DNA of 64,000 bases from an uncultured virus (IMG/VR IMGVR_UViG_3300035130_000143) (taxonomy: Duplodnaviria; Heunggongvirae; Uroviricota; Caudoviricetes): the IMG/VR virus record IMGVR_UViG_3300035130_000143. One strand, given 5' to 3'. The stretch's first letter is position 1, and each line of letters opens with the position of its first letter. The translations under genes and the position numbers were made by a program. Below, piece after piece: positions 1-50,924 of this stretch. The notes below the pieces were generated by a model. That model did not search any database. It saw only the letters and a list, made by a program, of their open reading frames with translations, and was not told the DNA's origin.

Positions 1-113
1 TTTATTATTCTCCTTCCAGTTTGTTGGGATTACCGGAAACCCTATTCTGGCGCGATTCTCTAGCGCCGCCTTCTCTGCGCCTGACGTTCGAGTCAGGCGC
101 AGAAAGCACGGGG

Positions 114-3160: not shown

Positions 3161-3369
3161 AATCGCAACTGTCTTACCTGGAAAAATGCACACCGCCGAG
3201 AAACTATTTTTGGAAGTGTTACCTTCAGGACAGAGTACCCGCTATCCAGGCTGAAATTGATAGGCTGCGCAGATTTGCCAACAGACGAGCAGGCAAGGTT
3301 GCTGATAATGTCAATGCAAAAGCGGATGCTTTGCAGGCAAGGCTCGATACGTGTAAAGTAACGCTATAG
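3154..3369 (+). CDS. small early protein
   Basis: follows half repeat+SD. Confidence 0.6.
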   Translation: MLESQLSYLEKCTPPRNYFWKCYLQDRVPAIQAEIDRLRRFANRRAGKVADNVNAKADALQARLDTCKVTL

Positions 3370-19435: not shown

Positions 19436-21946
19436 CTAAAACTCGATTTCTGCCGCTATTTCGGCCCCGCTTTTGTATTCTTCATTTGCAAGCGCGTCCT
19501 TACGTATATGTAGAGTTTGCTGTACCTTGCCGTTCACACGCTTGTTCTTGGTATAGCGGCCCTTGTTTTTGGAACTGATAACACCCAGGGCGTCAAGCTG
19601 TTTGTGGAGAGCCAGGGCGCTTATGCCGTTCAGGTCGCCCACCAGGGCCTCGACTGCCCGCCGTGCCACGCTGGGCATTAGGTAAATGCCGTCTGTGTCC
19701 TGCCAGCCCACGAGGCGCAGTTTCTCTTTATCTGTCACCACGGCGGCCATGTCGGGAATAGCTATCTGTTCCACAGCCAACAGTTCACGCAAGGCCCCCA
19801 GGTAGCGTGTAGCCTCTAGCGCCTCGGCAGTCGCTTCGGCCATCGTCGTCGCTACAATCTCCCTCAAGCCTTGCAGGTGTATCTCTTGGTATTTGCGCGC
19901 CAGCGGGCCAATATCGGGGTGCTCGCACATCATTTCCCAGGTAAGTTGGTTGGTTGCCAGGTTAGACGCCACGCGCAGAATATTCACGCTATCAGAACGA
20001 ATAGAGCGCAATGCTTCGGCCCACCCTGAACGGTATTCCTTGAACTTGCCTGCTATACGCGCCACGGTCTCCTGTCCGGTTTCAGTCTCAAGCCATGCGA
20101 TCCAGGCGTTACCCACTGCGCACATTTGACTTGATAGCTCTTGCGCTTTTGACAAAGACTCGTTATCCTCGCCGCTTTGCCACAGAAACGGCACAACCAG
20201 GATGCGTGCCAGGCTGGCCGGGTCGCCGTCTGGCACATCCTCGCCGGTGCAGATAGGCCAGCAGTGAAGCGGCTTGGTGTCGCGCAGCTCGGCGGCGCGG
20301 TTCATTCGCTCCTTTTCGCCCCCCTCTACGATATTGTGTACAATACCCACAAACGCACTGGCCCCGCCGCCTGTGTTGGGCTTGAAATTGTCTATTAAGA
20401 GTGGCAGGTCGTGAGGGATGGTAGCGTTGCCCATCAAGGCGTTATTGGTCGCGCCCTCGCCCCATTTGATGAGCAGTGTATCGTCGGCAAAGCCGGGGCC
20501 GTAAACACACATCAAAGTCTGCGCGAATGTCGTCTTGAGACTGCCGGAGCGACCGCTGATAAAAACTGCATAGCGTTCATTGCCCCATTCTGCCAGACGC
20601 GCAACCGGCGCTTGGAACACCACGGCGGACACGGTGCAAGCCCGCTCCGGTGTCATTGACTGTAAGAGCGCATCCAGGCCCTCAAGGCCCATGTTCAGGT
20701 CTGCGCCAGCATCCACGCGATAGGGTAGTTTACGCCTTAACAAAATCTCGATACCGCTCTGTGGCCTGCCTGGAATGAGAAAGCGCCCATTGTCGGCCCA
20801 GCCTGTCCGCTCGTAGCGCAGGATTTTTTTAATGCTGTTCTCACTCGTAAGCAACTTGATAGCTGGCCCCAGGTGCGCGCCCATCTTGGCCCGCACCGGG
20901 TCCAGGCCCCCGCTGGCAGCGTCCAGTTTAGCGCGCAGCTTGTTGTCACTGCCAAAATCCTCGGCGTCTATCTCCAAGCAAAATGGGCCGCCGCGAATGG
21001 CGCACCCGTCTATGACAAAGAGCTTGTCCCCGCCCTCGCGCATAATTTCGTGCGAGATTGACGCCTGGAAATCGGCGATAGGGTTGCTCACAATTAGTGG
21101 CGCATCATCGTACACCGTGCGCTCCGACAAGTGAACGAGCCGCCCGGCCTTGATGTCGTAGGGCCAGGTAGGCGGGCGCTCCACGTTCACGGCGTTAAGA
21201 ATTTGCCGGGCGGCGTTCGTGCGAATCGTCTCGCGCCACTCGTTTTTTAGCGCCGTCTTTTTGCGCTTCACCAGAATAGGCGGCGTTTCAACCTCTACGA
21301 TAAAAGTGTCAATCTCATCCTCGCTCATGCGGGATTGCATTATAATAGCCTTGAGCAGTTCGTACCAATCGGGCTCGGGCGTCTTTGTCTTGAGTAGAGA
21401 TTGGATCCACTCTTCTTTGCGCTGCTTGAGGGCTGCCAGGGCGGCCATAGCGCCAGGCCCATCAAGCGGGCCGTCCTGCTTTTTTTCGCCGCGCCGGGCC
21501 AGCGCATCCCCCAGCGCCCCGTCAAACTCGGCCACGCTCAGGCCCAACCGCTCCCGCAAAACGCGCCGATAGGCAATGTGTTCCGTGGGCGTCTTTTGCG
21601 CTATCAAGTCGAAGGCCGAGGCCAGCGCGTCTGGGCTTGCGCCGTTCTCGCTCAAGGCCTCCACCATATCCGCTATCACGCCGTCAGTCAGCCAGCTCGT
21701 ATCGTCGCCGGCGCGGGCCGGCGCGTCAATGCCGATCATAGCGCAAACGCGCGCCCCGGCCTGGCGGTCGGCCAGTTGGGCGCGAATAGAGGCTATTACC
21801 TGCGCGCGCTCGTTCTGGTCAATGTCTGCCAGCAACGAGCGAATATATGCAACTTTTTCATCCTGGTCCAGGTATGGGTCATCACTTTCTATGAGGTTAC
21901 AGAGGTACACCGCATCATATACGGCCAATTGGCCCGCGTCGCTCAT
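19436..21946 (-). CDS. replicative helicase/initiator, DUF927/Cch-like P-loop ATPase
   Basis: 836 aa; GRSGSLKTT Walker A, LLIDN Walker B, KERMNRAAELR, ICTGE. Confidence 0.8.
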   Translation of the reverse strand: MSDAGQLAVYDAVYLCNLIESDDPYLDQDEKVAYIRSLLADIDQNERAQVIASIRAQLADRQAGARVCAMIGIDAPARAGDDTSWLTDGVIADMVEALSENGASPDALASAFDLIAQKTPTEHIAYRRVLRERLGLSVAEFDGALGDALARRGEKKQDGPLDGPGAMAALAALKQRKEEWIQSLLKTKTPEPDWYELLKAIIMQSRMSEDEIDTFIVEVETPPILVKRKKTALKNEWRETIRTNAARQILNAVNVERPPTWPYDIKAGRLVHLSERTVYDDAPLIVSNPIADFQASISHEIMREGGDKLFVIDGCAIRGGPFCLEIDAEDFGSDNKLRAKLDAASGGLDPVRAKMGAHLGPAIKLLTSENSIKKILRYERTGWADNGRFLIPGRPQSGIEILLRRKLPYRVDAGADLNMGLEGLDALLQSMTPERACTVSAVVFQAPVARLAEWGNERYAVFISGRSGSLKTTFAQTLMCVYGPGFADDTLLIKWGEGATNNALMGNATIPHDLPLLIDNFKPNTGGGASAFVGIVHNIVEGGEKERMNRAAELRDTKPLHCWPICTGEDVPDGDPASLARILVVPFLWQSGEDNESLSKAQELSSQMCAVGNAWIAWLETETGQETVARIAGKFKEYRSGWAEALRSIRSDSVNILRVASNLATNQLTWEMMCEHPDIGPLARKYQEIHLQGLREIVATTMAEATAEALEATRYLGALRELLAVEQIAIPDMAAVVTDKEKLRLVGWQDTDGIYLMPSVARRAVEALVGDLNGISALALHKQLDALGVISSKNKGRYTKNKRVNGKVQQTLHIRKDALANEEYKSGAEIAAEIEF

Positions 21947-22565
21947 GTCTACACGTCCTTATTCCCCCTGCGCTGGGGCGCTAAACCGCCTCTTTTACTC
22001 GCTCTTTTTTCAATTCTATGGCCTGTTCCCACACAGCGAGCTCAACGAGATCGCCAAAGCGCCGTGCTCGCCTTGCGAACCAACGCAAGTCGTGCAGTGT
22101 AAAGTGCAAATACCCACGCGCCTTCTCGTCTAGTGCGGCTCGATTTTTCCACCAGGGTTTATCGTTGTTCATAAGCCCGATCCTCGTCTCTCCGCGCCAG
22201 GGGCGCTAACTACGCTCCGCACTCCCCGAATCCGCCAGGACACTCATCTCTATCTGGGCAATCGTCACAGGGCGACGCCAGTCGGGGCGCTGGCGTATGG
22301 TCTGCGAATTGAGCTAACACTGATTCGTTCCGGCGCGCCAGAAATTGCGCGGCTAGTTTTTCCCCACACTGCCAGCACAGAAAGTCGCCCGGCGCTTTTG
22401 CGCGTCCGCAGTCGCAGAGACCGTCATCCTCTAGCTGTGCTGGTAGCGTATTGGCCCACGCGAGACCGGTTCCCAAGTATGTCATGATTCACTCTCCCTT
22501 GTCGGCCAGTAATAATTCAACTCTGCCACTTCCTCAAAGCCCGCGTAAAACTCCGGGTCCTTGAA

Positions 22566-22717
22566 CCAACACCCCATGCGCACATGGAGCGCACGCTGGC
22601 ATACGAACGGGCTTGTGTATTCTGGACCAACACCCCATGCGCACATGGAGCGCACGCGCGGTAGGAGCCGGTCCACGCTCGCTATAGTCCAACACCCCAT
22701 GCGCACATGGAGCGCAC
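22566..22717 (-). CRISPR. CRISPR-like mini-array: three identical 29-bp repeats GTGCGCTCCATGTGCGCATGGGGTGTTGG, spacers of 33 and 32 bp
   Basis: repeats at 22566-22594, 22627-22655, 22689-22717; internal hairpin CTCCATG-TGCG-CATGGGG; unique spacers. Confidence 0.85.
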
Positions 22718-22830
22718 ACTAAAAACTTAGTGTGCATCCAGGTTTTATTCTGCAAGCAGATACCAGGTTCCTGGTTCACAGTAGTGCATTTCATCGCACT
22801 AACTCCCCAGGCAAGCATCGTCTGTTTGAC
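22689..22830 (-). ncRNA. putative TnpB omegaRNA/tracr-like scaffold overlapping the tnpB 3' end and running into the first repeat
   Basis: GCCTGGGGAG...GTGAACCAGGAA (resembles IS605/IS607 omegaRNA motifs) and a hairpin pairing with the repeat 5' end. Confidence 0.6.
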
Positions 22831-24025
22831 GACTCACTAAAGCGGCCAGGTTCAATGCCGCATTTTCGTCTCTGTCAATGACACCGCCGCAACTATCACA
22901 ACGGTATTCCCTGTCTGACAATTTCAAATCCGACTTGATTGCTCCGCACATCGAACAACGTTTACTCGACGGCTCCCACCTATCAGCCAGCATGACCTTG
23001 CTGCCAACCCAGCGAGCTTTGTACTCAACCTGCCTGCGCAGCTCTCCCCACCCAACATCGCCTATAGCCTGCGCCAGACAATGATTTTTCATCATCCCGC
23101 TGACGTTCAAGTTCTCAAGAACAATGACGGATGGTTTTAATTGAAAAGTCAGGTAAGAACTGATTTCGTGCAATGTGTATTTACGAGCATTGGCAAGATC
23201 AAAGCAAGCTCGTTGCAACTTAGCTTTGGTTTTCAGCCAGTTTGCGCCGCCTTTCTTTCGCCTTGCTAATTCACGGTTCAGTCTATCAATTTTTCTCTGT
23301 GCATTTTTTAGATGTCTTGGGTTTTCAAAGACCTTGCCATTGGAGCACACCGCAAGGCTCTTTATTCCAAAATCAACACCGATAACCTTGCCACTTGTTT
23401 CCAGTTGTTCAATTTCTTCCTCTACCAATACTGAGATAAACCATCGTCCTGCATGCTCTGAAACTGTAGCGTATGTTCCATATTTCGCAGCATCGGTTGG
23501 GATGTAGTCTCGCTCCTTGAGTTTGATAAGGCCAATGCGGGTTAAGCGCACATGGTCAGAGTAAACTTTTGTGCTGGTCAATTGGAATGATTTCCCATCC
23601 TTGTGTCGGCTTTTGAACTGAGGATAACCAGGGTCAAGTTGGAATCCTTTGCGACCTTTTCTCAACCGTTTCCTACAATGCTTCTCCCACTTTCCAGACC
23701 TTTTCAAATCGGAGATACGCTTGACAACCGTGCCGTCTTTCTTCTCCTTAAAATACCGAGTGAAGGCACTGTCTAGGTTTCTGAAAGTTGCCTCTGTTAT
23801 AGCGTAGGGCACTGCTACCACCCAGGGGCATTGTTCATGCTTAAGGGCATTAAAGGCTTTCTTTTGAGCCAGCTTGCTAGTTGTCTCTTTTTGAGCATAT
23901 CTGCGCTCATGGTCTGCCAGTGCCCAATTGTAAACAAATCGAGATACGTCTGTACATTGCTTCAGAAACGCTCTCTGCTTATCATTAGGGTCAAGCTCTG
24001 TTTTATATGCTCGTAAAATTTTCAT
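22799..24025 (-). CDS. tnpB: RNA-guided endonuclease TnpB (IS605/IS607 OrfB; Cas12-like), RuvC triad intact, no tnpA nearby
   Basis: RAYKTELDPN N-terminus; GVDFG, VLENLNV, DRDENAALNL; CSMC...CDSC zinc finger. Confidence 0.95.
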   Translation of the reverse strand: MKILRAYKTELDPNDKQRAFLKQCTDVSRFVYNWALADHERRYAQKETTSKLAQKKAFNALKHEQCPWVVAVPYAITEATFRNLDSAFTRYFKEKKDGTVVKRISDLKRSGKWEKHCRKRLRKGRKGFQLDPGYPQFKSRHKDGKSFQLTSTKVYSDHVRLTRIGLIKLKERDYIPTDAAKYGTYATVSEHAGRWFISVLVEEEIEQLETSGKVIGVDFGIKSLAVCSNGKVFENPRHLKNAQRKIDRLNRELARRKKGGANWLKTKAKLQRACFDLANARKYTLHEISSYLTFQLKPSVIVLENLNVSGMMKNHCLAQAIGDVGWGELRRQVEYKARWVGSKVMLADRWEPSSKRCSMCGAIKSDLKLSDREYRCDSCGGVIDRDENAALNLAALVSRQTDDACLGS

Positions 24026-24042
24026 GCTCATCAATCATCATA

Positions 24043-24120
24043 CCAATACCCCACACACCTACGGGGTACACTCAATATCCCAATTTCCTGACCAATGCCC
24101 CCTGCGCCTTCGGGGTCCAC
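24043..24120 (-). repeat. two degenerate 29-bp copies of the array repeat upstream of tnpB, 20 bp apart
   Basis: GTGGACCCCGAAGGCGCAGGGGGCATTGG (24120-24092) and GTGTACCCCGTAGGTGTGTGGGGTATTGG (24071-24043); each 19/29 identical to the array repeat without gaps. Confidence 0.65.
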
Positions 24121-24128
24121 GTACAAAT

Positions 24129-24533
24129 TCACTGCTGCGCTAGGTACATCAGGACGGCCTGGACATGCTCACAGTTGCCACGTAAGCAGGTGCAGGTCCC
24201 GAAATCTTCTGTGCGCATTTCCACCACGCACGGGCCGTCCACATCTGGCACGATGTAAACATCGGCGGCCCAACTGTGCGGCTTGACCAGAGCAGCCATA
24301 GCCCGCAATGTGCCCACAGGCCATTGCTCAAGCAAAGCGACTATTTCATCAGCAGCCTTGCTTGCACTCTCGTCAAGGCAGGCGCACTGAATGGCCGATT
24401 TTATAATGTCTCTGATTCTATCTTTCACGGTGCTCTCTCTACTGACTCCACCACTTGCCAAGCACGCCGCAAGAGGTCGTAGGCCCGACTCTTGGCGGCG
24501 CGCAACTGGCGTAAATAAGCTGGCGTCCATCAT
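24129..24533 (-). CDS. SWIM-type zinc-finger protein
   Basis: CTC....CEHVQAV; paralogs at 29785 and 30374. Confidence 0.6.
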   Translation of the reverse strand: MMDASLFTPVARRQESGLRPLAACLASGGVSRESTVKDRIRDIIKSAIQCACLDESASKAADEIVALLEQWPVGTLRAMAALVKPHSWAADVYIVPDVDGPCVVEMRTEDFGTCTCLRGNCEHVQAVLMYLAQQ

Positions 24534-37724: not shown

Positions 37725-38243
37725 ATGGACTTGAACGATTGGGCGCAAAAGGCATTAGAGAAGTGCGATCCGGCAAGCAAGCCGGTTTCGCTATACTGGT
37801 TTGAGCATGTGAAATATGATTCGGATGTGGACTGGTGCTATGAGTGCGCCATTGCCCTCATGGAATATTTCAACGGCGAGACCGAGCGCCCCGAAACGGT
37901 CTGGGAAGACGAGGAGATTCCCGATTGGTCCCCTGGGCCTGATAGCGTTGCTCTTGCTGGCGGCTGGGCAATCGAATCGGACACCGCGAGATTTTGCGCT
38001 CGGTGCGGGCGCAGGCTGGAATTTTGCCCGACTGACTATTTTTGCAAGAGTGAGCTGGAATATTATGAGAATTACACCCCCAGGGGTGACTGGCGCAGTT
38101 TTCAGATATTCCTGGATGCAATGGATGAATACTGCGCCTCAGGACGGGACTGGTATTCGCGGGCATTGAGGCTTGCCGAGAAATACCTGGGGACCGAAAC
38201 TATTGACCGGTGGGGACGGCGCACAGTTGAGGTAAAAGGCTAG
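37725..38243 (+). CDS. hypothetical protein
   Basis: 172-aa ORF. Confidence 0.65.
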   Translation: MDLNDWAQKALEKCDPASKPVSLYWFEHVKYDSDVDWCYECAIALMEYFNGETERPETVWEDEEIPDWSPGPDSVALAGGWAIESDTARFCARCGRRLEFCPTDYFCKSELEYYENYTPRGDWRSFQIFLDAMDEYCASGRDWYSRALRLAEKYLGTETIDRWGRRTVEVKG

Positions 38244-38806
38244 TGAACCAACAGACTCCCCTCGTCATCACAGCCCAGACCATCCCTGCCGCCGAAGGAA
38301 TGAAAGTGCATTTTTCACAGAAGTCCAACGAATGGGCCACGCCTCAAGATGTGTTTGACAAACTGGATAGCATGTTTGGGCCATTCTCTTTGGACCCCTG
38401 CGCCACTCCCGAAAACGCAAAGTGCGAGCGGTTTTTCACGGCAAAAGAAGACGGGATAAAACAGGACTGGGGTACACACACTGTTTTTATGAATCCGCCA
38501 TACGGTAGGCAGATCGGGCGGTGGATTGCCAAAGCCTACCACGAAAGCTTGCAGGGCGCTATGGTGGTCTGCTTGATTCCAGCACGTACAGACACAGCAT
38601 ACTGGCATGATTACGTTATGCGCGCTGGCGAGGTTTATTTGCTACGCGGGCGCATAAAGTTCGTGGGGAGCAATAGTTCTGCGCCTTTTCCATCTTGCGT
38701 TGTGGTTTTTTATCCAAGAGATCATGACCAGTCACCTCTTTTTTTCTCGCTTGATTCACGTGCGGAGCGATGGGAAAGATACCACGAGGACGATATTCAT
38801 GAATAA
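38243..38806 (+). CDS. phage N6-adenine DNA methyltransferase (Dam-like)
   Basis: EWATPQ, LDPCAT, FMNPPYG, LIPARTDT..WH, GRIKF. Confidence 0.92.
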   Translation: MNQQTPLVITAQTIPAAEGMKVHFSQKSNEWATPQDVFDKLDSMFGPFSLDPCATPENAKCERFFTAKEDGIKQDWGTHTVFMNPPYGRQIGRWIAKAYHESLQGAMVVCLIPARTDTAYWHDYVMRAGEVYLLRGRIKFVGSNSSAPFPSCVVVFYPRDHDQSPLFFSLDSRAERWERYHEDDIHE

Positions 38807-38927
38807 CAATCAAGTCCCTTTAGTCGCGACGGCGCAAACCATTCCCGGATTTGTGGCATGCGATCTGAGCGCGCCGGGTTTATCCGGTCCCTGGAAAAGC
38901 GGACGTTTGAGCAGAGGACATGGTGGA

Positions 38928-39476
38928 ATGACGAAAATGCTGATGCTTGACTTAGGTGCTGGATTAGGTGGCGCGTCTGAGGCAATGCGCCGACGCGGGT
39001 GGAATGTCGTAACGGTGGACATCAACCCGGAGTTTAACCCCGACATCGTGGCTGACTTACGCACGTGGTCCTGGGACGGCCCGCGCCCAGACCTGGTGTG
39101 GGCCAGCCCGCCCTGTGATGAATTTGCCAAGTTCGCCATGCGTTGCTGGTATGACGTGGATGCACTGGCTACCCCTGATGTGTCGCTGGTGTTGGCCTGT
39201 AAGCGTGTCATAGATGAGTGTCACCCGCGATTCTGGATTATCGAGAACGTGCGGGGAGCCATACAATTTCTTGAACCGATATTGGGCACGCCGCGCAAGT
39301 TTCGCCCCTATTATTTGTGGGGACACTTCCCATGCTTGGGTGATGTGAAAAGGCACACATGGGGCACAAAAACAAAAAAACTATCCTCTACCGCAAAGGC
39401 CGAACGCGCTGAGATACCATACTCGTTGAGCAAGGCTGTGGCCCTGGCGATAGAGCGACAGGGTGAATTGTTGTGA
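38928..39476 (+). CDS. compact C5-cytosine methyltransferase-like protein
   Basis: LDLGAGLGG, WASPPC, IIENVRG. Confidence 0.8.
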   Translation: MTKMLMLDLGAGLGGASEAMRRRGWNVVTVDINPEFNPDIVADLRTWSWDGPRPDLVWASPPCDEFAKFAMRCWYDVDALATPDVSLVLACKRVIDECHPRFWIIENVRGAIQFLEPILGTPRKFRPYYLWGHFPCLGDVKRHTWGTKTKKLSSTAKAERAEIPYSLSKAVALAIERQGELL

Positions 39477-39606
39477 CTGATAGGCCAACCATAGCCACAT
39501 TTTGTTCAGTGGCGTGGGTAAAGGGGACCGGGGCGCGCTTATTGCCTGAACGCGCCCCGGTTGAGGAGAAATACTACAAAAAGCTGATGGTTGAGGATAT
39601 TTTATC

Positions 39607-40308
39607 ATGAACGGTGTGGAAATGTCAAGAGTTATTTACGGCGACGCCCGCGAGATAGACCTGGCGCAGTTTGACCGCTACCAAACGATAGCGGCAGACC
39701 CGCCGTGGTTTTACAACGATCAGCGCAAAGTGCGCAAGGATGGCGCTACCCCCACGGCAGGTATAGGCGCGTGTCATCACTATGACCAAATGACCGTTGA
39801 AGAAATCTGCGCCATGCCCGTTGCCCAATTGGCCGCATCCCGCTGTCATCTCTACCTCTGGGCAACCGCTCCACTCTTACCCGACGCCTTGCAGGTCATG
39901 AACGCCTGGGGCTTTGAATACGCGACTGTTGCCTTTGCCTGGGTAAAGATGAACCCTGGCGCGTGGGGCGAGGCGCAGATCAGGATAAATCAACTAGATA
40001 TGTTTGGAACGCCGGACGAGCAGGTCGCGGCGTTCATGGATAACCTGGCTTTTTTCGGTCCTGGTTTTTACACCGGCTCAAACGTAGAACTTGTGCTGCT
40101 CGGACGGCGCGGTAAACCGTTCGCCCACGCCAAGGGCCGGAAAGCCGCGCAGGCCATCTTTGCTCCACGAGGAGAACACAGCGCCAAGCCTGAGCGGGTG
40201 CAAGACTTGATAGAATGGATGTACCCTGGCGCCGCGCCGCGTCTTGAGCTTTTCGCAAGGCGAGCGCGAGTAGGATGGGATGTATTTGGCAATGAAATAC
40301 AAGATTGA
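39607..40308 (+). CDS. MT-A70 family adenine methyltransferase
   Basis: ADPPW, LYLWAT, AWGFEY...WVK, EHSAKP, LELFARR..GWDVFGNE. Confidence 0.92.
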   Translation: MNGVEMSRVIYGDAREIDLAQFDRYQTIAADPPWFYNDQRKVRKDGATPTAGIGACHHYDQMTVEEICAMPVAQLAASRCHLYLWATAPLLPDALQVMNAWGFEYATVAFAWVKMNPGAWGEAQIRINQLDMFGTPDEQVAAFMDNLAFFGPGFYTGSNVELVLLGRRGKPFAHAKGRKAAQAIFAPRGEHSAKPERVQDLIEWMYPGAAPRLELFARRARVGWDVFGNEIQD

Positions 40309-40347
40309 CGCGCCGGTTGTAAAATCGGCGCTAGAGCCACGAGAGCT

Positions 40348-41175
40348 GTGGCAAAGGCGGCTGTGGTGAGTAAATCAGTAGCGCAATACATTGTAGACGG
40401 ATTAAAATTGGAATTAAACCCAAAACTAGAGCAGCACACTGAAACTGATCTTGATACCGTATGCGCTATAACCGGTGAGCGCATTACTCAAGGCATTTTC
40501 TGGAAACATGTAATTCCTTCCTCAACAGGAGAATATTTGGGCCTCATGAGCGGTATGGCGTTCCCGTACCTGGGTATCCCCGCTGCCATGGCGTTCAAAG
40601 GCAGTTGGAACATGGGAAGCCGTCTGATTTTTGAGGACGGAACCATGTATCATCCGTACATTTCTACTGCAAGCGCAGAGAAAAGCGAACGTACCTGTTG
40701 GCGCGACCTGGTGCGCGACGTGTGGCCTGCGCGCCAGGGGCAATCGTGTCTCTGCATCATCACCGATGACTACAAAAAGAAAATTTGGCCGATGGCGCGG
40801 ACTGGAGAATTGGGTATGAATACACCAGTTCTTTTGTTAGATTCAGACAGGCTGCCGCCATCAAAAAACATAGCCTCACCCAGGCGCCTGGTTAGCCGTC
40901 TGGCATTACATAGATTGACAATTAACTGGGAAAAATTGATAGCGGTTCTCGATTTTGTCGAAACTGTTCGCGCTGCTGGCTTCGGTAGACAGGCTATCTC
41001 GGAAAGCCTGTTTACGTTCTACGCGGCGCTGATGGAGAATCAATCAACTGTGTCGAGCTGGGAAGCTCGATTGGTCGAACTGCGCGAGACGCCAGAGTTT
41101 GCCGTGGCGCTATTGATTGCGCAAAAAGATGTCGCTGAACAAGGCAAACGAGAAAAGCAACTTAGTTTTTTATAA
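40348..41175 (+). CDS. csf1: type IV CRISPR large subunit Csf1 (Cas8-like), putative
   Basis: position upstream of csf2, size, CAITG motif, KKKIWP motif. Confidence 0.65.
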   Translation: MAKAAVVSKSVAQYIVDGLKLELNPKLEQHTETDLDTVCAITGERITQGIFWKHVIPSSTGEYLGLMSGMAFPYLGIPAAMAFKGSWNMGSRLIFEDGTMYHPYISTASAEKSERTCWRDLVRDVWPARQGQSCLCIITDDYKKKIWPMARTGELGMNTPVLLLDSDRLPPSKNIASPRRLVSRLALHRLTINWEKLIAVLDFVETVRAAGFGRQAISESLFTFYAALMENQSTVSSWEARLVELRETPEFAVALLIAQKDVAEQGKREKQLSFL

Positions 41176-41186
41176 GGAGAATAAAA

Positions 41187-42629
41187 ATGCAAGCGAAACA
41201 TTTTCAATTGGCGCTGACGGCTAAAGAGGCCATCAGTCACCACGACCCAACGACGGGAAACGACAGTAATATTCTGACGTTCAACCGTCAATTACAGTTC
41301 GTCAAGCGCGACCCAACCGACACGCCGGTTTTTAGCCATCTGGTCGAGGCGCTTTGTGAGCAGAATCCTATGCCCGCGAGCGTGGGCGCGCTGACGAGTC
41401 GTCTGAATTTGCCGGAATGGTTGAGTGCGGCTTACATTCGTCTCTTGTTAGACATCCACAATAAAGCTGACACCGACACTGACGAAAGTCGAGAGAAAAA
41501 GACAAAGAAAAAAGATGGGCAAGGGCTGTTGTCGGGCATGCAGCGGTATCGCATGCTCGAAAACCGCCTGCAAACGTCAGCGGTAAAATGCTCAACACTA
41601 CACGGTTTGTGGTCTGTACTGACACATGATTTGTTGTTGGAAATGCATGACAGCAAACACGACGAGGCCATAGCCGCGTTCTGGACGCTTCCCCCCAGCG
41701 TCCAGTATTCTATGCTCACGACGATGAGCAAGCAACACCGCGCAGTTTCAACTCTGGCGCGTGTCTGGCACGCGGCAAACAAATGCCAGAGCGCAGAGTA
41801 TTGCGCGGCTGCAAAGATTCCTTATGCGCCCCAGGAGATGGCAGCGCGCTCGTTCACCGACGAGGATTTTCCAGAGCCGCCAGACGAGATAGTACTAGAT
41901 GTGCCCGCGATTAGCGTCAACAGTCTACGTCATCAACTGGTGCGCGAGCCGTCCTGGTTGCACCTGTGTTCATTGTTGGGGATTGAACCTCAGGCTAGAG
42001 GCGAGGGACCGTTGCCCGTGGGGGCCGACGCGATTTTTGCCAATGGCGGAAACATTGAAAAAGGCGCGAGCCAGCCAAGCAACACATTTTATCTGGCTGG
42101 CGAGATTCGCAAAGCCTACCCATCACTGGACTTGTTGGGCGGTACAACCTCGTCGTTTGACCTGGGCGAAAGTAAGCTGGAACTTTCGGCCTGGATTGTC
42201 TGCAAGGAAAATGCGGACAATCTGCCCGCCGCGCTACAGAATACGGCGCAGGCCCAAACCAGCGTGTTTGAAATGCTAGACGAGGTAACGCGCACGCGCC
42301 ACGCCACAGCAGACGGACAGGGCCAGATGATTTACAACTACGAGACCCTGGTAGCAGGTACGCAGGTCTTTGTCGAGTTGGCGCTAACGCCATACACCAC
42401 GGCGCTGACCGAGGGTGCGCTGGCGGCGGCGCTGGATTACTATGAGCGGAATGACAATGTGATAGGCGGCCAGTCCGCTCGCGGGCATGGGCACGTGAGC
42501 GTTGAATGGCTGACGGACAAGCCGCAGGGCATGGCTGACTATGAGCAGTTTGTCACAGAGCGCAAGGATGAATTGTACAACGGCCTCGTGAACAAGACGC
42601 TGTGCTCTGGCGCGCAGGTGATTAAATAG
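41187..42629 (+). CDS. csf2: type IV Cas7 (Csf2) with a large helical insertion resembling Cas11
   Basis: LTAKEAISHH, VPAISVNSLRHQL, FANGG, YPSLDLLGG, TRTR, QMIYNYETLVAGT, IGGQSARGHG. Confidence 0.88.
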   Translation: MQAKHFQLALTAKEAISHHDPTTGNDSNILTFNRQLQFVKRDPTDTPVFSHLVEALCEQNPMPASVGALTSRLNLPEWLSAAYIRLLLDIHNKADTDTDESREKKTKKKDGQGLLSGMQRYRMLENRLQTSAVKCSTLHGLWSVLTHDLLLEMHDSKHDEAIAAFWTLPPSVQYSMLTTMSKQHRAVSTLARVWHAANKCQSAEYCAAAKIPYAPQEMAARSFTDEDFPEPPDEIVLDVPAISVNSLRHQLVREPSWLHLCSLLGIEPQARGEGPLPVGADAIFANGGNIEKGASQPSNTFYLAGEIRKAYPSLDLLGGTTSSFDLGESKLELSAWIVCKENADNLPAALQNTAQAQTSVFEMLDEVTRTRHATADGQGQMIYNYETLVAGTQVFVELALTPYTTALTEGALAAALDYYERNDNVIGGQSARGHGHVSVEWLTDKPQGMADYEQFVTERKDELYNGLVNKTLCSGAQVIK

Positions 42630-42630
42630 C

Positions 42631-43377
42631 GTGGACGAGATTGCACGCGCTGGATTTTTAGCGCATGCCATGTTGCCTGTATACAAGCGGCGCGTGGCGC
42701 GGGCTAGAGAGTGGATTCGTCGGGCATTGGAGTTGTGCCATAGTCCATACGTGGCATGGAGCGTGGGCGGCAAAGATTCATCTGTCATGTTGGATTTGGT
42801 GTTGGAGCAATCGCCCATAGAGGCCCGCGTGTTGGTTAGTGGAGAGACCAGGTATTTATTTCCAGAATTTAACGGAATAATTGAATGGTGGCAGAGAAAG
42901 CATGGAAACAAGTTGATGGTCTCTCTTATTGAAACTGATAGGGTATGGTCAAGCAACATGGCGTTTGATGAACAGCGCAAGGCCGGGCGCAACGACATCA
43001 TGAACTTACTTCCGACAGAAGCGCATGACCTGGTTTTTTTAGGCTTGCGCGACAAGGAAAGTAATCGGCGCGAGTTAGCCAATAAGCGCGGCATTATCCG
43101 TCGCTATGCACAATCGCGAAAAAAGAATATCCGGGGAACTTACGTGTGTGTACCAATAGCCAAACTGACCACAAGGGACATAGCAGCATACACCGTAACT
43201 AATCAAATACCAGTATTCAATGTGTATACAGAATGCGGATTTGATGAACGCACAACTCTGCGTCTGACGGGAGATGCGGTGCGGCAAATGGCATTTCAGC
43301 GATTGCGCATAACTAACCCAAAAGAGTATAATGCCTTGCTGCACAGATTTCCCGAACTCAACCAATGGAATGGATAA
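42631..43377 (+). CDS. cysH: CysH/PAPS-reductase-family PP-loop protein of a type IV-B locus
   Basis: YVAWSVGGKDSSVM, FLGLRDKES.RR, PIAKLTTRDI. Confidence 0.85.
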   Translation: MDEIARAGFLAHAMLPVYKRRVARAREWIRRALELCHSPYVAWSVGGKDSSVMLDLVLEQSPIEARVLVSGETRYLFPEFNGIIEWWQRKHGNKLMVSLIETDRVWSSNMAFDEQRKAGRNDIMNLLPTEAHDLVFLGLRDKESNRRELANKRGIIRRYAQSRKKNIRGTYVCVPIAKLTTRDIAAYTVTNQIPVFNVYTECGFDERTTLRLTGDAVRQMAFQRLRITNPKEYNALLHRFPELNQWNG

Positions 43378-43779
43378 ATGGATGTACTTCTGTATCAAGT
43401 TAATCGCAACCTGAACCGAGCATATCGCACGGCAGAAGCATTCGGTGTGGCGCGTATGTTATTGCTAGATTGCGGCAGCGCGCTATTGGCCGGAAATCTA
43501 TTCAAGGCGCGAGACCGGGTGAAACTTGTATCAATTGACAAGTGGCCTGCTCCCTGGGGGCTGTTGGCGCTAGAAACTTACTACCCACACTCAATAGAAA
43601 TCACGGACTGGTCAGAAGTGACTACTATTGTAATTGGCGGGGAATCTCATGGGCTGCCGCGCAATCTCGAAGCAGCACAGCGTGCGCGAATACTTACGGT
43701 TGGCGCAATATCGGGACTAACCGTTGAGGCCGCCCTGGCTATAGCATTATATGAATGGAGGCGAAATGATTCGTATTAA
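43378..43779 (+). CDS. SpoU/TrmH-like SPOUT methyltransferase (minimal)
   Basis: RNLNRAYRTAEAFG, IVIGGESHGLP, GLTVEAALAIALYEW. Confidence 0.8.
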   Translation: MDVLLYQVNRNLNRAYRTAEAFGVARMLLLDCGSALLAGNLFKARDRVKLVSIDKWPAPWGLLALETYYPHSIEITDWSEVTTIVIGGESHGLPRNLEAAQRARILTVGAISGLTVEAALAIALYEWRRNDSY

Positions 43780-44527
43780 AGAACTTGACGCCCTAACCTC
43801 AAAATTTGCACAGTGCGCTCTTGACCCCCTGCGCGTGACGTTCTACCTGGAACACAACGCTCGCGTGGTCAACTATGACCCAATTCATCTTGATGGACTG
43901 CTGGCCCGCGCCGTGGTCGAACGCGCCACGCGGGGGCGCTTGCTGGCTGACTGCGAGGACGGCTACTGGATACCGTTGCCGCTTCAAATGTTGTGGCAGA
44001 GCGATGATGGGTTTCCGCTCTGGGCGTCCACCATGCTCTATCCAGCCGCAAAGACCATAAAAGACGTTTATGTACGCCACAAGCGCAACTCTGGCGGCGA
44101 GTTGCACAATAGAAAGAAAATGATTACCCGGAAAGGCTCCTGGATGGAGCGGCGCATACCCACCCCCACGCTGGTGTGTGACCGGTACGAGGCATATTGT
44201 GTCGGCAACCTGGACGCCGTGCAAAATCTACTTGGCGGCTTTGCACGCATTGGCAAGTTGCGCCTGGCGCGGGTCAACGGCGTCAAAGTTGAACCAGTAG
44301 ATGAATTTTCACTTTGGCGAGGCGACAAACTGGCGCGGCCCGTGCCCGCTGAATCAAAGCTGATTGACCTGGTTGAGAAACCGTCTTTAGTCGGCTGGAC
44401 GCCGCCGCACTGGAAACCGTCATTGTTCTCGCCTGGCTGGCAGGCGGGAACAAGGCGAGCAGAGAACTTGCGAGAGTTTTTGGACTTGACATATTTACAG
44501 GAGATAGATTATTTTGACGCAGTGTAA
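43766..44527 (+). CDS. csf3: type IV Cas5 (Csf3)
   Basis: PLRVTF...IHLDGLLA, PLWAS, YCVGN...V..LL....IGK, RPVP, PPHW. Confidence 0.85.
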   Translation: MIRIKELDALTSKFAQCALDPLRVTFYLEHNARVVNYDPIHLDGLLARAVVERATRGRLLADCEDGYWIPLPLQMLWQSDDGFPLWASTMLYPAAKTIKDVYVRHKRNSGGELHNRKKMITRKGSWMERRIPTPTLVCDRYEAYCVGNLDAVQNLLGGFARIGKLRLARVNGVKVEPVDEFSLWRGDKLARPVPAESKLIDLVEKPSLVGWTPPHWKPSLFSPGWQAGTRRAENLREFLDLTYLQEIDYFDAV

Positions 44528-44768
44528 TGTGAACCGACTTGTGGATATTTGGCTTTTTTTGTCCGAGCGCCCAAGCCGTGGTACGGCTGTGTCTGATGCG
44601 CTTGGACTTCCTCGGTCATACATTTATAACCACGGCTTGCATCAAATGGAAGAGCGGGGCTTTTTATTGAGCCAGGATGAAAAAAGTCGTCTGTACCCGT
44701 TCAAGATTTGCGATATGGAAAACTTTCGCCTGATGCCGTGTGCAGAGCGCCCACGGCGCAGGTTGTGA
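44514..44768 (+). CDS. small winged-helix-like protein
   Basis: VSDALGLPRSYIY...MEERGFLLSQDE. Confidence 0.5.
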   Translation: MTQCNVNRLVDIWLFLSERPSRGTAVSDALGLPRSYIYNHGLHQMEERGFLLSQDEKSRLYPFKICDMENFRLMPCAERPRRRL

Positions 44769-44783
44769 TGCGTTGAGGCGGCT

Positions 44784-45923
44784 GTGGTGAAAGCGTTCTA
44801 TGCCGACGACCGAGTGAAGTTGTATCGGGCCGACGCCCTTGACCTCTTGCGCAGTCTTGACGCCGCCAGCGTCAGCCTCATTTTTGCCGACCCGCCCTAT
44901 AAAGGCGTAAAAAATCTCTGGTGGGACAACCAATGGAAAAGCGACGCCGACTTTTTGGCCTGGATAGGCGCGCTCTGCGATGGGTTTAAGCGTGTGTTGG
45001 CTCCCAATGGCAGCTTCTACGTCTGCGCTAGTCCGGCGATGGCCTGGGCAGTTGAGGGCCAGGTGCGCCAGCGGTTCAATGTGCTAAACTCTATCCGGTG
45101 GTACAAAGACGCGGGCTGGCACAAAAAAGCGCGACCAGAGGACCTGAGAAGCTACCTGGAGCCGTGGGAGAGCATCATTTTCGCAGAACAATGGTGGGCC
45201 GATGCCAGCGCCGAGGGTGAGGCGGGCTACTATTCCCAGTGCAAGGCGTTGCACAAAAATGTCTACGCGCCCATTGGTCGCTACATCCAACAGGAGCGGG
45301 AGCGGGCGGCCCTGAGCAGGAATGACGTTGAGGTTGCTCTTGGGTACGTGTCAGGTAACGACCCGACAAGAGGGACGGCGTTGTGCTATCGGTGGGAAGA
45401 AGGATCAAGCCTACCGACTAAAGATGCCTATGAGCGCCTGCGCGTGTACCTGAACACGCATGGGAATGGTTGTGGTGAGTACTTGCGCGAAAGCTATGAG
45501 TATCTGCGCGAAAGCTACGAGGACTTGCGCGCAGAGTATGAAAGCCTGCGCCGCCCATTCACCCTCACCAAAGACCGTCCCTCAACTGATCTGTGGACCT
45601 ACGAGTCGGTGCAGCCAGACGACGAAAAGCACCCGACCGAAAAGCCGCTAGAAATGCTCTTAGACATCGTAAAGACATCGAGCCGCCCGATGGACCTTGT
45701 TGTTGACCCGTTCCTGGGGCGCGGCGCAACTGCCGTGGCGGCCCAGGGGTTGGGCCGCCGCTTTGTCGGGGGCGATATTCAAGAGCACTGGGTCAGCGCC
45801 ACGGTTTCCAGACTGAAAGAGGCTCGGGGAGAAATGCACATGCGGGTCAGGCGCAGGGATGAGCCGCAAAAACAAGCAGGACAAATTGACCTGTTTGAAA
45901 TACTAGAACGAGGGCTAGAGTGA
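44784..45923 (+). CDS. N4/N6 DNA methyltransferase (beta class) with an inserted XRE-like HTH
   Basis: ADPPY, HPTEKP, DPFLGRG; insert IQQERERAALSRNDV...RWEEGSSLP. Confidence 0.9.
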   Translation: MVKAFYADDRVKLYRADALDLLRSLDAASVSLIFADPPYKGVKNLWWDNQWKSDADFLAWIGALCDGFKRVLAPNGSFYVCASPAMAWAVEGQVRQRFNVLNSIRWYKDAGWHKKARPEDLRSYLEPWESIIFAEQWWADASAEGEAGYYSQCKALHKNVYAPIGRYIQQERERAALSRNDVEVALGYVSGNDPTRGTALCYRWEEGSSLPTKDAYERLRVYLNTHGNGCGEYLRESYEYLRESYEDLRAEYESLRRPFTLTKDRPSTDLWTYESVQPDDEKHPTEKPLEMLLDIVKTSSRPMDLVVDPFLGRGATAVAAQGLGRRFVGGDIQEHWVSATVSRLKEARGEMHMRVRRRDEPQKQAGQIDLFEILERGLE

Positions 45924-46046
45924 ACTTGTTTTGCGCTGACGACCGAGTGAAGCTATACCAGGCTGACGTCCTACACTGGGCGCGTTGGTACAAGGATGAG
46001 ATAGTTTGGGAAAATCGAACCCCCGGGGGCGTAAAGAGAGGTGATT
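45921..46046 (+). pseudogene. 5' remnant of a DNA methyltransferase gene
   Basis: VNLFCADDRVKLYQADVLHWARWYK resembles the starts of the 44784 and 50925 genes. Confidence 0.6.
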
Positions 46047-50913: not shown

Positions 50914-50924
50914 GGACATTTTAA

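What the first reader, a model, noticed from the sequence alone, without database searches (positions are those of the whole stretch)
22689..22830. omegaRNA-like scaffold fused to the first repeat by an anti-repeat hairpin (natural single-guide)
Seen (minus strand): ...GCCTGGGGAG...GTGAACCAGGAACC...TGGA-T-GCACACTAA-GTTT-TTAGTGTGC-GC-TCCA, where GTGCGCTCCA is the first 10 nt of the repeat. The upstream segment can therefore pair with the repeat 5' end, competing with the repeat's own hairpin. Inference: a scaffold-repeat-spacer 1 transcript acts as a single guide, and the same anti-repeat could act in trans as a tracrRNA for repeats 2 and 3, capturing the omegaRNA-to-tracr/crRNA split.
Basis: partly seen in the sequence, partly recalled or inferred. 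Interest (0 to 1): 0.8.

Follow-up and report, generated by a model that had tools for sequence, protein, structure and literature searches.

The report
TnpB guide RNA running into mini-CRISPR array
A phage-like element carries a small RNA-guided nuclease (TnpB) whose guide-RNA scaffold is joined by a conserved hairpin to the first repeat of a three-repeat CRISPR-like array, a natural example of the recently described step from transposon guide RNAs to CRISPR.

Summary
On the minus strand, tnpB (24034-22799, 411 aa) overlaps a 139-nt omegaRNA-like scaffold (22827-22689). The scaffold ends in the first of three identical 29-nt repeats.

- **The hairpin is conserved.** The 9-bp hairpin (22735-22714) closes on the first 4 nt of repeat 1. 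It is present in 30 of 30 aligned relatives and covaries.
- **The repeat is a copied omegaRNA end.** It is the omegaRNA's 3'-terminal module: hairpin plus pseudoknot tail. Of 56 related loci, 42 carry 2-8 copies, 7 carry one copy like a classical omegaRNA, and 7 cannot be judged. Of 102 spacers, 88 are 32 or 33 nt.
- **A pseudoknot ties repeat to scaffold.** A 2-bp covarying contact links the repeat tail to the scaffold's 5' AAAC, as in ISDra2 omegaRNA (PMC10097598).
- **One part of the reading fails.** The proposed outer TGGA:TCCA pairing that "competes" with the repeat hairpin is at chance level: 44.4% paired against 44.7% in shuffles. It costs about 7 kcal/mol.
- **Trans use is plausible but weak and untested.** Trans pairing would rest on 3-6 bp plus the pseudoknot.

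The kind is already published (TranC, Jin et al. 2025; V-U variants). This is a new member of a known kind, and this scan has noted the same kind before on other DNA.

The parts
22799..24034 (-). tnpB gene, 411 aa (P0001), with no transposase beside it. The RuvC motifs GVDFG, VLENLN and IDRDENAALN are retained.
   Evidence: Searches give the ORF. Pfam HTH_OrfB_IS605, OrfB_IS605 and Cas12f1-like_TNB. NCBIfam guided_TnpB 267.6 bits (cut-off 100); C2c8 and Cas12f2 far below their cut-offs. D221, E307 and D389 invariant in 11 sequences; these motifs align with those of ISDra2 TnpB.
22689..22827 (-). omegaRNA-like scaffold plus first terminal module (139 nt). It starts 26 nt before the tnpB stop codon (28 nt before the last base of the ORF).
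   Evidence: Covariance model R1: 125.6 bits (the window was in the training set). Consensus structure: 89.6% of cells paired against 41-45% for slid controls, covariation 0.528 against at most 0.107. Coordinates.
22824..22827 (-). 5' AAAC of the scaffold. A2 and A3 pair with tail positions -3 and -4 of the repeat (pseudoknot).
   Evidence: Column 3/344: AU 48, UA 4, GC 3, GU 4, unpaired 2. Column 2/345: AU 60 of 61. Seven double-change cells against 0.8 +/- 0.8 in shuffles (0 of 500).
22770..22811 (-). Stem P1 (CCTGG 22811-22807 with CCAGG 22774-22770). It encloses hairpin P2 (22801-22797 with 22786-22782) and the conserved ACTGTGAA.
   Evidence: 5 of 5 pairs in each helix change on both sides; 97.8% and 99.4% of cells paired.
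22738..22767 (-). Stem P3 (CCTGG 22767-22763 with CCTGG 22742-22738, with a U-U mismatch in the window). It encloses P3b (22759-22756 with 22753-22750).
   Evidence: helix 3 is 98.4% paired and 5 of 5 pairs covary. The window is the one UU cell at column 65/94 of A2.
22714..22735 (-). P4, the 'anti-repeat' connector hairpin: GCACACTAA / loop GTTT / TTAGTGTGC. The last 4 nt (GTGC, 22717-22714) are the first 4 nt of repeat 1.
   Evidence: 30 of 30 relatives have it, with 3-6 repeat nucleotides inside. Helix 5: 6 of 6 pairs change on both sides; for example, repeat nt 3 and its partner read CG 18, AU 16, GU 9.
22689..22717 (-). Repeat 1, the omegaRNA terminal module. It holds internal hairpin P5 (CTCCATG 22712-22706, loop TGCG, CATGGGG 22701-22695) and the 6-nt tail TGTTGG (22694-22689).
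   Evidence: Homologous single modules follow the same scaffold in L053, L057, L059, L061, L069 and L071.
22656..22688 (-). Spacer 1 (33 nt), the guide of the scaffold-repeat 1 RNA if that RNA works as an omegaRNA.
   Evidence: No target found.
22566..22655 (-). Repeat 2 (22655-22627), spacer 2 (22626-22595, 32 nt) and repeat 3 (22594-22566).
   Evidence: No target found for spacer 2.

Best explanation
The stretch is the 3' part of the guide-RNA (omegaRNA) scaffold of a phage-borne TnpB nuclease that has no transposase beside it.

Shown here:
- The scaffold starts 26 nt before the tnpB stop codon. It folds into stems P1-P3, a connector hairpin P4 and a terminal hairpin P5, followed by a 6-nt tail that base-pairs back to the scaffold's 5' AAAC (pseudoknot).
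- The 29-nt 'CRISPR repeat' is this terminal module: the last 4 nt of P4, then P5, then the tail. In this lineage the module plus its guide has been multiplied into a short array.

Inferred from homology:
- The transcript scaffold-repeat 1-spacer 1 is an ordinary single-molecule omegaRNA, a natural single guide, and directs TnpB to DNA matching spacer 1.

Inferred by analogy with TranC, not tested:
- Repeat 2-spacer 2 and repeat 3 with its flank can be used only if a scaffold is supplied to them. This would be in trans, or from the same precursor. They would be held by the 4-bp remnant of P4, the 2-3-bp pseudoknot and the protein.

Inferred from sibling loci:
- New spacers enter next to the scaffold. 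The scaffold end therefore behaves as the array's leader, and the newest spacer is the one wired in cis.
For: TnpB identity and an intact RuvC triad.

Scaffold structure:
- 35 pairs, 89.6% of 2029 cells paired against 41-45% when partners are slid.
- 33 of 35 pairs change on both sides; 0 of 500 shuffles reach the observed values (on 64 model matches, 63 distinct).
- P4 is present in 30 of 30 sequences, with 3-6 repeat nucleotides in its 3' arm.
- Pseudoknot. It has the same place and polarity as the ISDra2 pseudoknot (-5..-3 with -103..-105), described in the section 'omegaRNA architecture' of PMC10097598 (passages read). That section also calls omegaRNA a 'natural sgRNA'.

Repeat equals omegaRNA end (55 loci plus the window with a strong model match; near-identical sibling contigs had been dropped):
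- 42 have 2-8 modules.
- 7 have one module with at least 190 nt of sequence beyond it.
- 7 cannot be judged.
- L059 (1 module) and L058 (4 modules) are 100% identical over 1519 bp, ending exactly at the last base of module 1. L014 and L018 do the same.

Array regularity: of 102 spacers, 48 are 32 nt, 40 are 33 nt, 8 are 34 nt, 2 are 31 nt and 4 have other lengths.

Polarity: in the 2 sibling pairs that share part of an array (L030/L031, L072/L073), the shared spacers are distal and the differing ones lie next to the scaffold.

Precedent: TranC systems use both reRNA and crRNA. I know this from passages in reviews and a preprint; the Cell paper itself is not held.
Against: - No RNA data. No RNA run is listed for this DNA, so RNA ends, processing and the use of spacers 2 and 3 are unknown.
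- Trans pairing is weak. Only 3-6 nt of the repeat pair with the anti-repeat, and cognate duplexes (mean -4.7 kcal/mol) barely exceed non-cognate ones (-3.5, sd 2.6).
- The pseudoknot evidence is thin. It rests on 2 base pairs, and only one of them varies.
- No target was found for either window spacer, so no TAM/PAM can be read and activity is not shown.
- The single-sequence MFE of the window RNA differs from the consensus fold outside P4.
- The window's P3 has a U-U mismatch.
- The alignment used for pair counts was fitted to the model's structure, which leans the counts towards it.
- The polarity inference rests on 2 informative sibling pairs. In 3 other sibling sets all spacers differ, and in 2 the arrays are the same.
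Confidence: 0.75

Rival explanations
1. Only the scaffold-proximal unit works. The locus is functionally a one-guide omegaRNA whose guide is renewed at the scaffold-repeat junction. The distal repeat-spacer units are pushed-down, inactive leftovers that decay and are lost. No tracrRNA-like trans action exists.
For: Arrays are short: 1-8 modules, mostly 2-4. Distal repeats are often degenerate, with 3-8 mismatches in the last copy of L030, L032, L035, L049, L060, L074 and L077. Trans pairing potential is only 3-6 bp. Variation between siblings sits at the proximal spacer.
Against: Internal repeats are usually identical to repeat 1, as in the window (0 mismatches in 3 copies). This includes the 4 nt that serve only P4. 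Published TranC systems use both RNA forms (passages). Degenerate distal repeats are also normal in working CRISPR arrays (general knowledge).
Confidence: 0.25
2. One reading: the upstream TGGA-T-GCAC pairs with GTGC-GC-TCCA of any repeat. It competes with the repeat's own hairpin and serves as a true anti-repeat or conformational switch for repeats 1-3.
For: The complementarity exists in the window. The window's P3 is weakened by a U-U mismatch, which would free TGGA.
Against: Across 63 distinct sequences the four outer pairs are paired in 44.4% of cells against 44.7 +/- 1.0 in shuffles (358 of 500 at least as high), and the covariation score equals the shuffles. Ensemble probability is about 0.02. 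The extended hairpin gives -16.3 kcal/mol against -23.2 for P4 beside P5. TGGA and TCCA each belong to helices that covary with other partners.
Confidence: 0.05
3. The array is an independent type I-E-style mini-array carried by the phage to feed the host's Cascade. Its position beside tnpB is incidental.
For: 29-nt palindromic repeats and 32-33-nt spacers are the geometry of type I-E arrays (the I-E geometry is general knowledge). Phage-borne mini-arrays are known (recalled; cf. PMC11656645, search listing only).
Against: The repeat always follows the same scaffold in the same orientation (51 of 52 array loci carry the ACTGTGAACCAGGAA motif 61-148 nt upstream). Its 5' end covaries with the scaffold's anti-repeat and its tail with the scaffold's 5' end. 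Single-module relatives exist. No cas gene was found among the 59 window ORFs scanned against Pfam. No Rfam CRISPR-DR match at E up to 1.
Confidence: 0.05
4. The hairpin is a transcription terminator or a purely DNA-level leader signal between tnpB and the array, not part of a guide RNA.
For: It is a stable hairpin lying between a gene and an array. The sequence around its loop is A+T-rich in one subfamily.
Against: No U-tract follows it, and the terminator scan does not list it on either strand. It covaries as RNA pairs, including G-U pairs. It lies inside a 139-nt structure that matches the layout of omegaRNAs.
Confidence: 0.05

Closest known systems
TranC, transposon-CRISPR intermediates (Jin et al., Cell 2025, 188:6283). 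Known to me only through passages in PMC13565253, PMC13639567 and bioRxiv 10.64898/2026.03.27.714800; the paper itself is not held.
   Same: A TnpB-sized nuclease derived from IS605/IS607 TnpB, with a short CRISPR array downstream in the place of the omegaRNA guide. The reRNA is seen as split into a tracr-like and a cr-like part. Some are phage-borne: CauTranC9 averages 414 aa and sits in a Caudoviricetes genome.
   Different: - Repeats reported for TranC clades 3, 9, 11 and 20 are 32-38 bp. Here they are 29 nt with 32-33-nt spacers.
- P0001 matches LaTranC only over its last ~136 residues (E 7.5e-21), but matches ISDra2 TnpB at E ~1e-44, so it is not the LaTranC lineage.
- Here the repeat keeps a whole hairpin, and only 3-6 nt pair with the scaffold.
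- Whether this lineage is one of the published clades could not be checked.
ISDra2 TnpB-omegaRNA (PDB 8H1J, 8BF8; Nakagawa et al. 2023, PMC10097598)
   Same: It is the best-matching natural solved protein; an AI-designed nuclease, 9yyg, scores higher. It has the same RuvC motifs. Its scaffold of about 116-140 nt overlaps the gene's 3' end. It has a guide-proximal pseudoknot between the tail and the scaffold's 5' region. A hairpin loop joins a tracr-like and a cr-like part ('natural sgRNA').
   Different: ISDra2 has one guide, a TnpA partner and transposon ends. Here there are 3 modules, no TnpA in the window, and two hairpins (P4, P5) before the tail. The duplicated unit starts in P4 rather than in the loop of the last stem.
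Type V-U / V-U* candidate systems (Altae-Tran et al. 2023, PMC10691335; Makarova et al. 2025, PMC12669027)
   Same: TnpB-like effectors with a downstream array and no other cas genes. Arrays are proposed to arise by serial duplication of omegaRNA segments. About 50 independent events have been inferred.
   Different: I could not assign this lineage to a numbered V-U branch, because the supplement could not be read. NCBIfam C2c8 (V-U2) and Cas12f2 models score far below their cut-offs.
Type I-E CRISPR arrays
   Same: 29-nt repeat with a central G+C-rich hairpin, 32-33-nt spacers, and spacer turnover at one end.
   Different: The repeat tail (GGTTGG-like) pairs with the TnpB scaffold. There are no cas genes in the window and no Rfam CRISPR-DR match.

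Membership tests
TnpB-omegaRNA (OMEGA, IS200/IS605-type) | TnpB protein with HTH/WED-RuvC-zinc-finger architecture and an intact RuvC D-E-D triad | tested here: met
TnpB-omegaRNA (OMEGA, IS200/IS605-type) | Structured scaffold RNA that overlaps the 3' end of tnpB and ends directly at the guide | tested here: met
   coordinates. No Rfam family matches it.
TnpB-omegaRNA (OMEGA, IS200/IS605-type) | Pseudoknot between the guide-proximal tail and the 5' part of the scaffold | tested here: met
   2 bp, one of them covarying. Compared with ISDra2. The support is modest.
TnpB-omegaRNA (OMEGA, IS200/IS605-type) | Part of a transposon: TnpA partner, left and right ends, several copies per genome | tested here: not met
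   No Y1 or serine recombinase among the neighbours or the 59 window ORFs scanned. No further copy of the module in 64 kb. Copy number in the host is not testable, because no genome is held.
TranC / type V-U (TnpB-derived CRISPR) | CRISPR-like array downstream of and co-oriented with the TnpB-like gene, conserved among relatives | tested here: met
   42 of 49 judgeable loci have 2-8 modules. Also seen in MAGs labelled Uhrbacteria, Paceibacterota and Dehalococcoidaceae.
TranC / type V-U (TnpB-derived CRISPR) | Repeat derived from the 3' part of the reRNA/omegaRNA | tested here: met
TranC / type V-U (TnpB-derived CRISPR) | Anti-repeat in the scaffold able to pair with every repeat (tracrRNA function) | tested here: inconclusive
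   Only 3-6 nt of the repeat, plus a 2-3-bp pseudoknot. Cognate duplexes -4.7 against non-cognate -3.5 kcal/mol.
TranC / type V-U (TnpB-derived CRISPR) | DNA cleavage guided by both reRNA and crRNA | not testable with these tools
   Needs biochemistry.
TranC / type V-U (TnpB-derived CRISPR) | Placement in a named clade (TranC 1-24, V-U6-45) | not testable with these tools
LaTranC is only a distant match.
Type I-E CRISPR-Cas | cas genes (cas1, cas2, cas3, Cascade) at the locus | tested here: not met
   none in the window. ORFs under 120 aa were mostly not scanned, so a cas2 could be missed.
Type I-E CRISPR-Cas | 29-nt repeats and 32-33-nt spacers | tested here: met
Named miniature Cas12 (Cas12f2, C2c8) | Score above the NCBIfam family cut-off | tested here: not met
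   C2c8 64.9 bits against a cut-off of 350; Cas12f2 55.1 against 450.

The most novel reading that the evidence does not exclude
In this lineage the omegaRNA scaffold doubles as the CRISPR leader. A trans-acting, ruler-type integrase (type I-E-like Cas1-Cas2 of the host) would insert 32-33-nt spacers at the scaffold-repeat junction. The newest spacer would then always be hard-wired into a cis single guide. Older spacers would depend on a scaffold supplied in trans through a minimal 3-6-bp stem plus a 2-3-bp pseudoknot. The split point also lies one helix upstream of the one seen in ISDra2 and Cas12f. The crRNA therefore keeps a complete hairpin, a form between the tracrRNA-dependent and the palindromic-repeat routes to Cas12.
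Probability: 0.3. Interest if true: 0.7.

Novelty: new member of a known kind. Interest (0 to 1): 0.45.

Why it matters
It is a clean natural snapshot of how a transposon guide RNA becomes a CRISPR array. One-module and multi-module forms of the same RNA exist side by side, down to loci that are 100% identical up to the last base of the first module. The family gives a ready set of covarying contacts (P4, pseudoknot) for testing how much RNA-RNA pairing a split guide needs. Its type I-E-like spacing, together with spacer turnover next to the scaffold, raises a testable question: can a TnpB locus borrow a host's adaptation machinery? The nuclease is 411 aa (relatives 366-455 aa) and is carried by a phage-like element, which fits the idea that phages use such systems against rival elements. 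The general principle is already in print, so the value lies in the detail, not in a new kind of system.

Tried and rejected
- **Repeat searches.** Exact searches for the repeat or its core found nothing in viral contigs, genome contigs or metagenome contigs.
- **Spacer searches.** No second match in the window at up to 3 mismatches. Only chance-level hits in the phage collection (E 2-7). No exact 20-mer in viral contigs.
- **Rfam.** At E up to 1 over 21500-24500, only a sub-threshold P13 hit elsewhere.
- **Own genome.** Not held.
- **Window DNA against known phages.** No match.
- **Viral-contig TnpB relatives.** The eight relatives (32-47% identity) have no arrays and only weak or no scaffold matches.
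- **Single-sequence folds.** The 401-nt and 139-nt RNAs are dominated by repeat-repeat or repeat-scaffold pairings and were not used beyond P4.
- **RNAalifold on the MAFFT alignment.** It found P1-P3b but missed P4 and P5, because the variable-length P4 was misaligned. This was solved with a covariance model.
- **Sequencing runs.** No RNA holder listed; the one DNA run may be the source.
- **Papers.** The supplement of PMC10691335 gave no text. The Cell 2025 TranC paper is not held. bioRxiv supplements are closed, so clade assignment stays open.
- **Cas12 hacker / Cas12p** (bioRxiv 10.1101/2025.01.20.633832; abstract and sections 5 and 7 read). Considered and set aside: it is 500-700 aa, binds thioredoxin, and no link was shown.
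- **Cas-delta** (PMC12721324; passages read). Under 1000 aa and tracrRNA-free, so not comparable.
- **Terminator reading of P4.** Not listed by the scan.
- **Mobility of the tnpB-scaffold unit.** The L058/L059 left boundary falls in a repeated promoter cassette, not at a recognisable transposon end. Left open.
Full report
**What is in the window.**

On the minus strand, an ORF of 411 codons (24034-22799, P0001) is a TnpB.
- Pfam finds HTH_OrfB_IS605, OrfB_IS605 and the Cas12f1-like TNB domain.
- NCBIfam's guided_TnpB model scores 267.6 bits against a cut-off of 100. The C2c8 and Cas12f2 models stay far below their cut-offs.
- The three RuvC motifs (GVDFG, VLENLN, IDRDENAALN) are invariant among 11 aligned relatives. 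They align with the corresponding motifs of ISDra2 TnpB, which is the best-matching natural protein of known structure (E about 1e-44). LaTranC matches only the last ~136 residues (E 7.5e-21).

Downstream of the stop codon (22801-22799) come 81 nt, then three identical 29-nt repeats (22717-22689, 22655-22627, 22594-22566). These are separated by spacers of 33 and 32 nt.

The surrounding 64 kb looks like a phage. It holds a primase/helicase-like protein, DUF5131, a Gp3-like factor, a tail-fibre-like protein and at least five DNA methyltransferases. It has no TnpA and no cas gene among the 59 ORFs scanned against Pfam. No whole genome is held for it.

**Checking the observation.**

GCACACTAA-GTTT-TTAGTGTGC is a 9-bp hairpin (22735-22714), and its last four bases, GTGC, are the first four of repeat 1. 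It appears in the MFE and centroid folds.

**Relatives.**

Protein search found thousands of TnpBs. The nearest are 66-67% identical. Fetching DNA around relatives gave 8 viral loci, 80 metagenome loci and 80 genome loci.

- In the metagenome set, most relatives (44-67% identity) carry a CRISPR-like array with a 61-63-nt period just after the gene.
- Of 52 array loci, 51 have the motif ACTGTGAACCAGGAA 61-148 nt before the first repeat.
- Several relatives that my first repeat screen called array-less turned out to have the same scaffold followed by a single repeat-like unit.

I counted modules after the scaffold in 55 loci plus the window. These were the loci with a strong model match. Eleven near-identical sibling contigs had been dropped (L015-L018, L021, L029, L031, L040, L041, L043, L073), as had loci without such a match. 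The result:

| Modules after the scaffold | Loci |
|---|---|
| 2-8 | 42 |
| 1, with at least 190 nt of sequence beyond it | 7 (L053, L057, L059, L061, L066, L069, L071; L066 is a weak match) |
| Cannot be judged (75 nt or less left) | 7 |

L059 (one module) and L058 (four modules) are 100% identical over 1519 bp. The identity ends at the last base of module 1. L014 and L018 behave the same way. So the CRISPR repeat is the 3'-terminal module of this lineage's omegaRNA, copied together with a guide.

Of 102 spacers, 48 are 32 nt, 40 are 33 nt, 8 are 34 nt, 2 are 31 nt and 4 have other lengths.

In genome records the scaffold is found only beside the closest relatives. These are MAGs labelled Uhrbacteria, Paceibacterota and Dehalococcoidaceae, with 3, 2 and 4-5 modules. 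The many actinomycete, Chromatiales-type purple sulfur bacterial and Prevotella TnpBs at 32-38% identity lack it.

**Structure.**

A MAFFT alignment of 30 compact scaffolds gave three covarying stems with RNAalifold. Folding the last part of each sequence on its own showed two adjacent hairpins in 30 of 30:
- P4, whose 3' arm ends 3-6 nt inside the repeat;
- P5, inside the repeat, followed by a 4-7-nt tail.

I built a covariance model with P1, P2, P3, P3b, P4 and P5 and realigned 64 matches with E at most 1e-14. The window was one of the 30 training sequences, so its own score is not independent. On that alignment:
- 89.6% of 2029 cells form standard pairs, against 41-45% when the 3' partners are slid by 1-3 columns.
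- 33 of 35 pairs change on both sides.
- The covariation score is 0.528, against at most 0.107 for the slid controls and 0.191 for shuffles (0 of 500 reach it).

For the outer part of P4, the part that uses the repeat's first four bases, all six pairs change on both sides. For example, repeat base 3 with its partner reads C-G 18, A-U 16, G-U 9. The alignment is fitted to the model, which favours the structure. The slid controls and the independent per-sequence folds argue that the signal is real.

**A pseudoknot.**

I scanned the tail columns against all others. The third base of the scaffold (AAAC) pairs with the fourth-last base of the repeat: A-U 48, U-A 4, G-C 3, G-U 4, unpaired 2. The second base pairs with the third-last: A-U 60 of 61. 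There are 7 double-change cells against 0.8 +/- 0.8 in shuffles.

This is the place and polarity of the ISDra2 omegaRNA pseudoknot (-5..-3 with -103..-105). That pseudoknot is described in the section 'omegaRNA architecture' of PMC10097598 (passages read). The same section calls the omegaRNA a 'natural sgRNA', in which a tetraloop joins a tracr-like and a cr-like part. The repeat is therefore tied to the scaffold at both of its ends.

TGGA (22741-22738) and TCCA (22711-22708) are complementary in the window. However, TGGA is the 3' arm of P3 and TCCA is in the 5' arm of P5, and both helices covary with their own partners.
- Counted across the family, the four proposed pairs are paired in 44.4% of cells against 44.7 +/- 1.0 in shuffles. 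Their covariation equals the shuffles.
- In the window's own ensemble they have a probability of about 0.02.
- The extended hairpin gives -16.3 kcal/mol against -23.2 for P4 beside P5.

I read them as chance.

**How it most likely works.**

*Shown:* the anatomy above.

*Inferred from homology:* the RNA from about 22827 through repeat 1 into spacer 1 is a normal omegaRNA and guides TnpB to DNA matching spacer 1.

*Inferred by analogy with TranC:* repeat 2-spacer 2, and repeat 3 with its flank, could be used with a scaffold supplied in trans. TranC systems use both reRNA and crRNA (passages; the Cell paper is not held). The RNA-RNA contacts available in trans are small: 4 bp of P4 in the window (3-6 in relatives) plus the 2-3-bp pseudoknot. 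Cognate anti-repeat/repeat duplexes average -4.7 kcal/mol against -3.5 (sd 2.6) for non-cognate ones.

The rival reading is that only the scaffold-proximal guide is active and the distal units are leftovers. It fits the short arrays and the degenerate last repeats. I give it 0.25.

**Array dynamics.**

Among sibling loci:
- Two pairs share part of an array. In both, the shared spacers are distal and the differences lie next to the scaffold. L031 has two spacers and L030 one in front of a shared spacer and flank. L072 and L073 differ only in spacer 1.
- In three other sets all spacers differ.
- In two sets the arrays are the same.

Together with the uniform 32-33-nt spacers, this suggests ruler-type, polarised acquisition with the scaffold end acting as leader. 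The geometry (29 + 32/33) is that of type I-E arrays. No adaptation gene is in the window. This is an inference resting on two informative comparisons.

**Targets.**

Neither window spacer matches the window, the phage collection or the viral contigs.
- Spacer 1 of L014 matches 32 of 32 a site about 350 bp upstream of tnpB in sibling contigs L016-L018. The site is diverged in L015.
- Spacer 1 of L036 matches the antisense strand of its own tnpB.

This is too little to read a TAM.

**Comparison with what is known.**
- The origin of type V arrays by duplication of omegaRNA segments was proposed in PMC10691335 (passages read). That paper describes 40 new V-U branches.
- PMC12669027 speaks of about 50 independent TnpB-array associations (passage).
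- TranC (Jin et al. 2025) showed functional RNA splitting.
- A preprint reports a 414-aa phage-borne TranC9 with 38-bp repeats.

The present locus works like these and belongs to the same kind. I could not place it in a named clade. It differs in three ways: its 29-nt repeats, a repeat that keeps a whole hairpin, and a split point one helix upstream of the loop that Nakagawa et al. single out.

Notes of this scan on other genomes describe the same kind of locus (e1-5925203, e1-5816081). They agree with this reading but are not independent evidence.

**Verdict.**

This is a new member of a known kind, of moderate interest. Its value lies in the comparative detail (P4, pseudoknot, one-module against multi-module siblings, scaffold-proximal turnover), not in a new principle.

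Noticed in passing
L014:1636-1667; L016:1438-1469; L017:2305-2336; L018:389-420; L015:1006-1037: Spacer 1 of L014 matches 32 of 32 a site in an ORF about 350 bp upstream of tnpB in sibling contigs L016-L018. The site is diverged in L015. Contig L014 starts inside that site, so self-targeting cannot be told apart from targeting of a sibling element.
   Followed up: partly
L036:407-439 (minus) and L036 spacer 1: Spacer 1 of L036 is identical over 33 nt to the antisense strand of its own tnpB gene. The module call in L036 is among the weaker ones.
   Followed up: no
L071:425-571(-) and 1-122(-); L045:18-161(-); L078:2627-2798(-); L023:2224-2362(+); L057:138-282(-); L061:97-241(-); L048:2575-2697(+): Extra full copies of the scaffold lie near some relatives. 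Some have too little room for a tnpB between them, and in L023 one sits in the middle of the array. The whole omegaRNA, not only its last module, is therefore sometimes duplicated.
   Followed up: no
window 23633-23737 (-), residues 100-134 of P0001: A Lys/Arg-rich insertion of about 35 residues (DGTVVKRISDLKRSGKWEKHCRKRLRKGRKGFQLD) is shared with P0002-P0004 and P0024. It is absent from six other close relatives and from ISDra2 TnpB.
   Followed up: no
L059:931-2449 and L058:2748-4266: A 1519-bp unit (promoter region, tnpB, scaffold, module 1) is 100% identical in two different contexts. The right boundary is the end of module 1. The left boundary falls in a promoter cassette that recurs at L058:1702-1769. 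Mobility or modular phage recombination was not resolved.
   Followed up: partly
window 38243-52892 (+): A cluster of DNA-modification genes: Dam, MT-A70, two N6_N4 methylases, a 655-aa methyltransferase-like protein, a PAPS-reductase-domain protein, a SpoU-type methylase and a dCMP-deaminase-like protein. This suggests heavy genome modification by this phage.
   Followed up: no
window 22921-22892 (-): A sigma-70-like site (TTGTCA, 18 nt, GATAGT, with a TG) lies inside the tnpB 3' part, about 65 nt before the scaffold start. The scan found 4 sites against 1.8 +/- 1.3 expected, so the evidence is weak.
   Followed up: no
L042 spacer 1 (2553-2585); L039 spacer 1 (3328-3360): Two unrelated arrays have first spacers that begin A(G/A)AAAGCCCCG and contain a G+C-rich inverted repeat like a terminator hairpin.
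   Followed up: no
L072 and L073, spacer 1: The scaffold-proximal spacers are 42 and 46 nt, against 32-34 nt for nearly all others.
   Followed up: no
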